Shown piece after piece: positions 38,525 through 40,615 of a DNA stretch of 64,000 bases. How positions within the stretch are numbered: position 1 is the stretch's first letter; each line of letters opens with the position of its first letter. Under the pieces are notes generated by a model that did no database searches, had not been told where the DNA came from, and worked only from the letters and a program-made list of their open reading frames with translations. This DNA comes from Phoronis australis (taxonomy: Eukaryota; Animalia; Phoronida): positions 574,956 through 638,955 of the forward strand of contig NMRA01000029.1 in assembly GCA_002633005.1 (NCBI GenBank), given 5' to 3'. The position numbers and the translations under genes are program-made.

Positions 38525-40615
38525 ATGGGTTCGGCGTTACAGATCGTCGTCCTTCTTACGATAGTGTTATTTTGTCAAACTTTTGGAACTTTCGCAGTCT
38601 CTGTTGATCTCTCCAAAGGCAGAGTGAGTGGTATTGGTCCAATTCACGGTAATGGAGTGACTAAATTCTTAGGTGTGCCATATGCAGCTCCACCTACGGC
38701 GTCAAGGCGTTTTGCCAGGCCTGTCGACGTGCCAAGCTGGACAGGTGACTATAATGCCACCTTTCACCGTCCCGTTTGCCCACAGGATTTTCAAGAGTTG
38801 GAACTGGTGGCAGGAGTCGTTCGGGCAAATTTCAACATATCTTATGATCTACCGAAATCGTTTAGCGAAGATTGTTTGTACGTAGATATCTATATCCCTG
38901 GCGAACTGAACAAGACGAGTGCTTTGCCTGTGCTGGTGAATTTTCAGGACTCCTGGTTTCAGACAATTTCTCCGCAATCTCGCGAAGGAAGTCGTTTGGC
39001 TTTACACGGGAAAGTCATTGTGATCAACGTTAATCACCGTTTGGGGGCGCTTGGATTCTATGGAAGCGGTAATTTTGGATTGCTCGACCAAAATCATGCT
39101 TTGGTTTGGATTCAGGAAAACATTGTCCATTTCGGAGGTGACCCGAAGAAAGTCACGATATTTGGGTCCGAAAGTGGTGCATTTTCTGTCGGTCTGCACG
39201 TTCTCAGTCCCTTAAGCCAGGGCCTTTTCTCGAGGGCAATTTCGCAAGGTGGGAATGCGTTGATGACCAAATTTCTCGACACCAAACCAAATCATATGTC
39301 GAATGAGTTTAGTAGGGCTTTGAATTGTTCTGAAAGTGATCTCGTTTGCTTGAGAAACGTGGCTGTTGATAAAATCCTTGAAGTACAGAAGAATTTATCT
39401 GTGCAACACAAGTACTTTTTCCCCGCCGTTGACGGGTCATTCCTTCCAGCCCATCCAGACGTTCTTCTCCATTCCGGAAATTTCAGTAAGGTGGACTACA
39501 TTCTTGGCTTCAATAATGACGCTGGCACGCTTTGGCACCCAGAAACTTTTCTTCAGATTCAATCTGGAATTAATGAAGGTAACTACACAGACAAGCTGAC
39601 GAGATGGGCTTATGAAAAGTTTCAACCAAATGCCGAGGCTCCTTTGGCTTTCCTTCTGTTTGAGTACAGAACAACACTGGACAACTCCCCTCTGTCTCCT
39701 GGTCAAACATGGCTGAAAAGTCTGTTGACTGCTGGTCGCGATGCTACTGCGGCTTCAATGCGCATGGTACAAAGAATGCATAGACGTCATGGAGGCAAAG
39801 TGTTTGCCTATTATTTCAATCAGAGACCAACAGGAGCAAGCTACAGTGCTGACCTTCTATCTGCTCCATCTGGTGTTGAGACGCTGTACTTGTTTGGTCA
39901 TGAAAACGTGTCCCTAAGCAAGCAGATGGCTGAGGCCTGGGGTTCATTTGCAAACAGTGGGTGAGCAGTTAATGTCATCGTTTTCAAAGCCTTTTTGGCA
40001 CAATTCTTAAAAAGCCGAGTGTTCTCACTCAAGCGTGGGTGGCATACCATAGGGGCTGGAAGGGACTGTTGCCTCCCCCACTTATTTCTCTGCTGTGCCG
40101 CCCATGTCAAGTATATGATTGATCGGTTTTAACACCAAAAATTGGGCTTTCCTAACTGTGCAAGGCTGAAGAGTGTTGATAGCATCTGTGACGAAATTCA
40201 TTTCGAGAAATTCGATTAATTTTACTCATTGTTTGTCGCCATGGGGACACAGTTTTAAAAATAATTAAGATTAGTTTTGTAAAATTTCGTTCTTTGAATG
40301 TAGATTCAAAATCATTTAGCTTTCGGAATTTGAGTTGGGTTACTTTTTAAAGACAGTTTAAGCAGCTTCTTAAGTATCGGAAAAATCTAGCAGTAGACGT
40401 ACAGTAGCACAAAATGCTTTACACAATTTTTTGTTGTTTTTCTTCTGCCTAGCTCACCGCAGTTCACAGCCGAAGGCAAAGTCATCACCTGGCCAGAATT
40501 CGAGGCTTCTACTGGTTCATTTCTGGACATCCACAGTGGTATGACTGCTGCAGACATCCGACAGCAATATCCTGGTAGACTTGACAGAAGGATGGACTTG
40601 TGGAGTGATGTTTTG
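38525..40615 (+). CDS. Esterase domain 1 (signal peptide + catalytically inactive COesterase fold)
   Basis: [33 protein letters not shown] present. Catalytic sites altered: FQDSWF for IHGGGF, GSESG for GESAG, GFNNDAG at the acid site, APSGVE at the His site. Confidence 0.85.

What the first reader, a model, noticed from the sequence alone, without database searches (positions are those of the whole stretch)
38525..40615. N-terminal esterase domain is a pseudoenzyme with different exon structure
Seen: the oxyanion loop (FQDSWF), nucleophile elbow (GSESG), acid site (GFNNDAG) and His site (APSGVE) are all altered, while fold motifs and both disulfides remain. The domain sits almost wholly in one 1436-nt exon and shares only the final phase-2 intron with domains 2-3. 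Inference: a separately derived, possibly partly retroposed module under structural selection, acting as a folding chaperone or pro-domain (as in lactase), an adhesion module (as in neuroligin) or a ligand binder. The domain 1-2 join is the least certain, because read-through would stop at VNIFQCCD*.
Basis: partly seen in the sequence, partly recalled or inferred. Interest (0 to 1): 0.7.

Follow-up and report, generated by a model that had tools for sequence, protein, structure and literature searches.

The report
Dead esterase domain caps tandem enzyme
An animal gene strings at least four esterase domains together; the first, spliced to the second in RNA reads, has lost every catalytic residue and groups with a different branch of the family, so it likely acts as a non-enzymatic pairing or binding module, a new arrangement of parts already known in other animals.

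Summary
Domain 1 (D1, exons 38525-39960 and 40453-40615) keeps the carboxylesterase/cholinesterase fold (AlphaFold pLDDT 90, Z 51 to CES1). It has lost the serine, acid, histidine and oxyanion glycines (5 of 5 catalytic columns, against 11 of 83 other conserved ones). The doubtful D1-D2 join is real: 8 RNA reads splice 40615 to 42287 and none read through. The gene has at least four domains, not three. Trees reject D1 as a sister of D2/D3 (AU p=0.0003) and of neuroligin-like proteins (p=8e-7). D1 groups with two gastropod genes. One, catalytically intact in Haliotis, has the same single large exon ending at the same intron. The odd exon structure is therefore a trait of that lineage and needs no retroposition at fusion. 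Tandem and mixed dead/active esterases are common in databases (44 and 8 of 150 representatives), but none has this order or this lineage. D1's role is untested. My best guess is a secretion leader plus dimerisation scaffold, like thyroglobulin's cholinesterase-like domain, with one conserved cysteine in each linker. No earlier scan note covers this. Verdict: new variant of a known kind, moderate interest.

The parts
38525..39960 (+). Exon 1 (coding part, 1436 nt): predicted signal peptide (about residues 1-24) and nearly all of catalytically dead domain D1; ends in phase 2
   Evidence: (PF00135 E 2e-96); RNA depth up to about 10 on the sense strand; reads extend some tens of bases upstream of the ATG
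38942..38959 (+). Oxyanion loop replaced (FQDSWF)
39164..39178 (+). Nucleophile elbow GSESG, with Glu216 at the serine position
39506..39526 (+). Acid site GFNNDAG, with Ala333 at the catalytic acid position
39863..39880 (+). Histidine site APSGVE, with Ser449 at the histidine position
40453..40615 (+). Exon 2 (163 nt): C-terminal strands and last helix of D1; phase-0 donor
   Evidence: the donor is used in 8 reads; the joint from exon 1 was not listed
42287..42401 (+). Exon 3: Cys/Pro-rich D1-D2 linker (Cys543) and start of D2; no signal peptide of its own
43115..49450 (+). D2, triad motifs intact (GESAG, Asp, His): exons 43115-43346, 44139-44290, 45218-45399, 46264-46784, 48350-48535, 49149-49450 (the last also holds the D2-D3 linker)
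   Evidence: four joints listed in RNA
51121..59679 (+). D3, triad motifs intact (GVSAG, Asp, His): exons 51121-51349, 52298-52449, 53713-53894, 56650-57137, 58104-58307, 59381-59679 (the last also holds the D3-D4 linker)
   Evidence: joint 52449-53713 in 10 reads
54116..56400 (+). Second copy of two D3 exons and their intron (96.5% identical over 1784 nt) plus 88-nt repeats, right after an N gap; probably an assembly duplicate
61916..63320 (+). D4, partial: exons 61916-62147 and 63169-63320 (71% identical to D2); the rest lies beyond the window
   Evidence: not covered by the RNA lays

Best explanation
D1 is a folded, catalytically dead carboxylesterase/cholinesterase domain spliced to the front of a tandem array of esterase domains with intact triads, and it likely came from a separate large-exon gene and likely now works as the chain's secretion leader and dimerisation scaffold. 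Shown: dead site, sense transcription, the D1-D2 splice, and the only hydrophobic leader at D1's start. Computed: the intact fold (predicted model) and the separate ancestry (trees). Inferred: a neighbouring large-exon paralogue dropped its own tail (its full-length relatives mostly end in a membrane anchor) and spliced, through a phase-0 donor after its last helix, into the linker exon of an intron-rich esterase array. Inferred and untested: D1 pairs through the family's four-helix bundle, with D1 of a second chain or with D2; the single cysteine in each linker, placed just after the last helix, staples the pair; and this helps the long chain fold, leave the ER or sit at its target, as the cholinesterase-like domain does in thyroglobulin. 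I put identity and origin at about 0.85 and the scaffold role at about 0.45.
For: Dead site. Fold: pLDDT 90, pTM 0.90; Z 51.5, rmsd 2.3 over 441 residues to CES1. Constraint: 72 of 88 conserved columns kept; a 479-codon frame stays open in only 12 of 2000 simulations at 10% random change, yet D1 is only 35-38% identical to its nearest relatives. Join: 8 reads, GT..AG, zero depth in 40660-40959. Leader: hydropathy peak 3.42 in exon 1 against 0.34 after the exon-3 ATG; none of 4 hydrophobic ATG frames in intron 2 has a consensus phase-0 donor. Origin: D1 groups with Haliotis P0004, Gigantopelta P0119 and unnamed P0158 at 100/99 and 99/98; a D1+D2+D3 clade is rejected (p=0.022; p=0.0003). Exon: P0067 follows full-length Haliotis P0004 to FAKYG and then diverges as intron read-through; 9 of the 13 single-domain representatives that end exactly at this site fall in D1's wider group. 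Linker cysteines 543, 1067, 1586; a similar Cys/Pro linker occurs in Glandiceps, Saccoglossus and one Styela junction. Dimer and chaperone precedent: PMC5943944 section 2.1, PMC10578121 abstract.
Against: No test of dimerisation or secretion was possible. The exon 1-exon 2 joint was not listed in RNA (nothing was hidden there, so it is under 3 reads), and only 6 of the 11 introns in the stretch laid were seen, so one full-length transcript is inferred. The six RNA alleles in exon 1 are 3 replacement and 3 silent, too few to show constraint. The wider 17-row large-exon group has support 94 in FastTree, a 15-row version has 83 in a quick tree, and it is not recovered in the careful 39-row tree. 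D1 is a long branch and meets another (P0158). PMC5943944 says the C-terminal cysteine is not a major determinant of the AChE dimer. A dead N-terminal domain must fold for any secreted chain to pass quality control, so a conserved fold does not prove a positive role.
Confidence: 0.55

Rival explanations
1. D1 is a targeting or adhesion module: it binds a protein, glycan or surface through its outer face, as neuroligin-type domains do, and parks the active domains there.
For: 12 of 17 rows in D1's wider group lack the serine and 5 of 7 full-length members end in a hydrophobic anchor, a neuroligin-like layout that suggests the lineage had surface-binding roles before fusion. The best sequence hits in the PDB are neuroligins. 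D1 has 9 N-glycosylation sequons.
Against: D1 does not group with neuroligin-like proteins (AU p=8e-7). By structure CES1, BChE and neuroligins score alike (Z 47-51). No partner is known. This role does not exclude the scaffold role.
Confidence: 0.25
2. D1 is a passenger: it is kept only because exon 1 supplies the promoter and signal peptide, and a misfolded N-terminal domain would trap the chain in the ER.
For: It carries the only leader. All catalytic positions have decayed, more than in neuroligin-4, which keeps the acid and histidine motifs. The branch is long (1.28-1.35). 3 of 6 RNA alleles change a residue.
Against: About 530 residues have been kept in frame with 72 of 88 conserved columns, although a short leader would do the same job.
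Confidence: 0.12
3. D1 is a lactase-type pro-domain that chaperones the chain and is then cut off.
For: N-terminal, homologous to the active domains (31-33%) and dead, the same layout as pro-lactase (recalled).
Against: No dibasic site lies in the D1-D2 linker; the nearest pair (RR at 524-525) is inside the domain, before the last helix. The linker resembles the other two linkers, including the cysteine. D1 did not arise by internal duplication. A single basic residue could still be cut.
Confidence: 0.05
4. D1's emptied active site binds a small ligand or a cation, presenting substrate or regulating D2.
For: The site now holds polar or acidic residues (Q141, D142, E216, D332, S449).
Against: Trp144 takes an oxyanion-loop position and may fill the pocket.
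Confidence: 0.03

Closest known systems
Large-exon carboxylesterase-like genes of gastropods (Haliotis XP_071103214.1 / P0004, Gigantopelta XP_041346918.1 / P0119) and unnamed relatives P0158, P0005, P0006, P0099, P0110
   Same: D1's nearest relatives (35-38% identity; 99/98). Same long frame ending at the FAxxG intron (shown for the Haliotis cluster). Several are serine-less.
   Different: They are single-domain genes, mostly with a C-terminal anchor. The Haliotis gene keeps Ser, Glu and His; D1 has lost all three and is fused to further domains.
Two-domain active+dead carboxylesterases of hemichordates and sea stars (Saccoglossus XP_006825066.1, Glandiceps XP_077983973.1, Acanthaster XP_022079595.1 and XP_022100211.1); four-domain Styela XP_077968891.1
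   Same: Chimeric chains of active-type and dead domains from different branches. The two hemichordate proteins are sisters domain by domain and have a Cys/Pro linker like the one here.
   Different: Their dead domain is last, precedes a membrane anchor and belongs to another clade. Here it is first, comes from the large-exon group and leads at least three more domains.
Thyroglobulin cholinesterase-like (ChEL) domain
   Same: Non-catalytic domain of this fold inside a large secreted chain; acts as intramolecular chaperone and dimeriser (PMC10578121 abstract; PMC5943944).
   Different: C-terminal, serves unrelated repeat regions, vertebrate. D1's role is untested.
Neuroligins (and glutactin, gliotactin, neurotactin)
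   Same: Serine-less domain of the same fold; best phmmer hits in the PDB (E 6e-60).
   Different: Neuroligin-4 keeps acid and histidine motifs and two oxyanion glycines. D1 does not group with neuroligin-like rows and has no anchor directly behind it.
Multi-carboxylesterase-domain proteins of invertebrate deuterostomes (Johnson and Moore 2012, PMID 22210164)
   Same: Tandem domains and non-enzymatic members from domain shuffling (content recalled; I saw only the title in two reference lists and a one-sentence citation in PMC12992692).
   Different: I could not read it, so I cannot say whether a dead N-terminal domain is described there.

Membership tests
Type-B carboxylesterase/cholinesterase family (PF00135) | Profile match above cut-off and alpha/beta-hydrolase fold | tested here: met
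   324 bits against cut-off 27; Z 51.5, rmsd 2.3, 441 aligned to CES1
Active serine carboxylesterase (D1) | Nucleophile Ser in G-x-S-x-G | tested here: not met
   Glu216 where 56 of 56 references have Ser; ungapped register to Haliotis GESSG
Active serine carboxylesterase (D1) | Catalytic acid and His | tested here: not met
   Ala333 and Ser449
Active serine carboxylesterase (D1) | Oxyanion-loop glycines | tested here: not met
   D142, S143, W144
Active serine carboxylesterase (D1) | Measured hydrolysis | not testable with these tools
   needs expression and assay
Multi-domain (tandem) carboxylesterase | Two or more PF00135 domains in one reading frame | tested here: met
   open 1742-aa model with four domains; D1-D2 splice in 8 reads; the D2-D3 and D3-D4 links each lie within one exon
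Neuroligin | No nucleophile serine | tested here: met
Neuroligin | Descent from the neuroligin clade | tested here: not met
   AU p=8e-7 against grouping with P0103, P0212, P0172, P0197; only P0103 is named neuroligin-like by its source
Neuroligin | Single ectodomain followed by a membrane anchor and tail | tested here: not met
   D1 is followed by D2-D4; the chain's C-terminus lies outside the window
Thyroglobulin ChEL domain | C-terminal position behind thyroglobulin regions I-III | tested here: not met
   D1 starts right after the signal peptide
Thyroglobulin ChEL domain | Chaperone and dimerisation activity | not testable with these tools
   needs deletion and secretion assays
Retrocopy inserted at the fusion | Introns lost relative to the parent lineage | tested here: not met
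   relatives share the large exon; D1 keeps the family's FAxxG intron
Retrocopy inserted at the fusion | Poly(A) remnant and target-site duplication | not tested
   would not survive this divergence
Lactase-type cleaved pro-domain | Processing site between dead and active domains | tested here: inconclusive
   no dibasic pair in the linker, but single basic residues are present

The most novel reading that the evidence does not exclude
A secreted chain of four or more esterase domains forms a disulfide-stapled dimer ladder, in which a dead first rung recruited from an unnamed clade of large-exon, mostly serine-less surface proteins sets the pairing and docks the active domains on a specific target. 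It would be a natural targeted multi-enzyme built by gene fusion, and would expose a neuroligin-like class that arose independently of neuroligins.
Probability: 0.25. Interest if true: 0.65.

Novelty: new variant of a known kind. Interest (0 to 1): 0.42.

Why it matters
Many multi-domain esterases in databases may be gene-model fusions (Lineus P0078 has a hydrophobic leader before each of its four domains). Here the key junction has RNA support, so this is a real case of a dead and an active esterase lineage joined in one chain. It offers a clean test of what a dead cholinesterase-fold domain does for its neighbours, the question behind thyroglobulin's C-terminal domain. It also points to a poorly described large-exon clade that has lost catalysis in many members. 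The parts and the general idea are known, which caps the surprise.

Tried and rejected
No whole genome is held, so the end of the gene and its paralogues could not be read. No indexed RNA holder was listed; three raw-read runs added by species label carried the evidence, and the contig run X4 did not cover the exons. The word-index search for longer relatives found only 2 unrelated fusions; the full HMMER search replaced it. The third homologue search added one new protein. The ESM Atlas gave only generic PF00135 clusters. Paper searches for tandem or non-catalytic carboxylesterase domains found nothing on this arrangement; subscription journals are mostly not held and no supplements were read. 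Five searches for cholinesterase exon structure found no relevant paper, so the large BCHE exon is recalled only. Scan look-ups gave nothing relevant. Rejected: a shifted alignment that restores a triad (the elbow aligns without gaps; Ser215 and Ser217 flank the position and no His lies at the His site); D1 as a separate gene ending at the read-through stop (no depth there); an own leader exon for D2 in intron 2; a real tandem exon duplication in D3 (both copies together would shift the frame; the copy sits beside an N gap). No complex was predicted: D1's last helix, half of the expected dimer interface, lies in exon 2, and only exon 1 was modelled. Two careful trees did not finish in time and gave quick trees; one search finished one, at a slightly lower likelihood than the quick tree.

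Full report
Gene model. The window is animal DNA; no whole genome is held. Seventeen exons from 38525 to 63320, all with GT donors and, after the first, AG acceptors, give an open 1742-residue frame with four PF00135 domains, the fourth running off the window. D1-D2 identity is 31%, D1-D3 33%, D2-D3 48% and D2-D4 71% over the part of D4 held. D2 (GESAG, Asp, His) and D3 (GVSAG, Asp, His) have intact triad motifs; for D4 only the oxyanion loop is in view.

D1 is dead but predicted to be folded. Against 56 homologues (from 67 rows I set aside 9 test rows and 2 incomplete ones), D1 keeps 72 of 88 conserved columns. It has lost 5 of 5 catalytic columns (two oxyanion glycines, Ser to Glu216, acid to Ala333, His to Ser449) and 11 of the other 83 (Fisher p=1.1e-4). 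The elbow aligns without gaps to the intact Haliotis motif GESSG. AlphaFold on exon 1 gives pLDDT 90 and the model matches CES1 at Z 51.5, BChE at 48-49 and neuroligins at about 48. I did not see coordinates, so residue geometry is inferred from alignment. A frame of this length survives 10% random change in 12 of 2000 simulations, while D1 is 35-38% identical to its nearest relatives, so it has been kept in frame by selection.

RNA. Three stranded raw-read runs of the same species label (one study; about 18-19% of each run read) cover exon 1 on the sense strand at low depth. The joint 40615-42287 is in 8 reads (X2 6 with 6 starts, X3 2, X1 0), and depth is zero in 40660-40959, just past the read-through stop. 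Five further joints were listed (11, 12, 13, 9 and 10 reads). Of 11 predicted introns in the stretch laid, 6 were seen; one search hid 13 weaker joints. The exon 1-exon 2 joint was not listed, where nothing was hidden. Its support is indirect: no depth in 40060-40359 inside the intron, X1 coverage of 51 letters in the bin whose exonic part is exactly 51 nt, and exon 2 encodes the missing C-terminal part of the fold. Six RNA alleles lie in exon 1, 3 silent and 3 replacing, none in a catalytic codon; coverage of the oxyanion loop is thin.

Origin. In two careful 20-row trees D1 never joins D2/D3; a clade of the three is rejected (p-AU 0.022; 0.0003), as is grouping D1 with four neuroligin-like rows (8e-7). 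D1's firm neighbours are Haliotis P0004, Gigantopelta P0119 and unnamed P0158 (100/99). A wider group is supported at 99/98 with 8 rows and 94 with 17 rows (FastTree), but not in the careful 39-row tree. D1 is a long branch, so the deeper placement is less sure. The host's phylum was not established; the two named neighbours are gastropods.

Exon structure. P0067, a Logan frame in the Haliotis cluster, follows the full-length protein to FAKYG and then departs, as read-through into an intron would; it keeps Ser, Glu and His. Among 73 single-domain representatives, 13 end exactly at this motif, 9 of them in D1's wider group. P0005, P0006, P0099 and P0110 come from Logan or ENA contigs, so I take them as unspliced frames; P0119 is an NCBI model and the sources of P0130, P0162, P0185 and P0193 were not looked up. 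The large exon is thus a lineage trait that D1 brought with it. Human BCHE has a similar large exon ending at the residue to which D1's Gly479 aligns (alignment to BChE 478; the exon structure is recalled, and searches found no paper). Intron loss through cDNA usually removes 3' introns first (recalled), the reverse of the pattern here. Ancient intron loss is not excluded.

How common is the architecture. HMMER found 35,807 representatives and listed 150. Of these, 44 have two or more full domains and 8 mix serine-bearing and serine-less domains: 4 active-dead, 1 active-active-active-dead, 3 dead-active. In the 3 dead-first cases the two domains are sisters; none of the 44 has a domain in D1's group. 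The active-dead type recurs in two hemichordates and a sea star, with the hemichordate domains pairing as sisters, so such chimeras are real elsewhere. Some entries look like annotation fusions. Only the top 150 were examined, so absence of the same architecture is weak evidence.

Mechanism. D1 supplies the only hydrophobic leader. Each of the three linkers holds one cysteine 13-14 residues after the conserved aromatic position of the last helix (543, 1067, 1586), and the Glandiceps, Saccoglossus and one Styela linker have the same Cys/Pro pattern. Cholinesterases, neuroligins and the thyroglobulin ChEL domain dimerise through a four-helix bundle that includes this last helix, with C-termini converging (PMC5943944 section 2.1, read in full; other passages), and ChEL chaperones the rest of thyroglobulin (PMC10578121, abstract only). 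I therefore infer that D1 is a pairing and folding scaffold. The main rival is a targeting role: 12 of 17 rows in D1's wider group lack the serine and 5 of 7 full-length members carry a C-terminal anchor. Whether D1 lost catalysis before or after fusion cannot be ordered, since its neighbours include both states.

Literature. Multi-domain and non-enzymatic carboxylesterases in invertebrate deuterostomes were reported by Johnson and Moore 2012 (PMID 22210164; not held; title seen in PMC6490906 and PMC12992692, with one citing sentence in the latter; content recalled). Searches found no description of this arrangement. No supplements were read.

Verdict. Observation confirmed, join strengthened, retroposition not needed, function open. 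New variant of a known kind; interest 0.42.

Noticed in passing
window 52250-56400: Two D3 exons and their intron appear twice (96.5% over 1784 nt) around the N gap 54026-54115, with five 88-nt repeats of the acceptor region; probably two haplotypes or a misassembly.
   Followed up: partly
window 59625-63320: A fourth esterase domain, 71% identical to D2, continues beyond the window; the D2-D3-D4 pattern suggests a repeated two-domain unit and perhaps more domains.
   Followed up: partly
window 8978-13961 (+): Exons of a secreted SMP-30/gluconolactonase-family gene (PF08450 in two pieces).
   Followed up: partly
window 29425-33940 (+): RING-finger exon followed by two long Ser-rich frames of 333 and 621 residues without a Pfam match; probably one gene just upstream of the esterase.
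   Followed up: partly
window 58556-59005: Tandem repeat of about 21 nt in the last D3 intron, open in all six frames.
   Followed up: no
window 42035-42092 and 50100-50640: Short intronic repeats with high RNA depth on both strands and many loose ends; dispersed mobile-element pieces.
   Followed up: no
window 38410-38709: Run X3 has a few reads of opposite orientation at the gene's 5' end.
   Followed up: no
proteins P0089, P0121, P0093, P0100, P0097, P0102: Hemichordates and echinoderms share two-domain esterases (active-dead or dead-dead; a membrane anchor was seen in the five checked) whose second domains form one clade.
   Followed up: partly
proteins P0075, P0081: Models with many domains that all lack the serine: Macrostomum (3380 aa) and Parastrongyloides (1971 aa); may be real or annotation fusions.
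   Followed up: no
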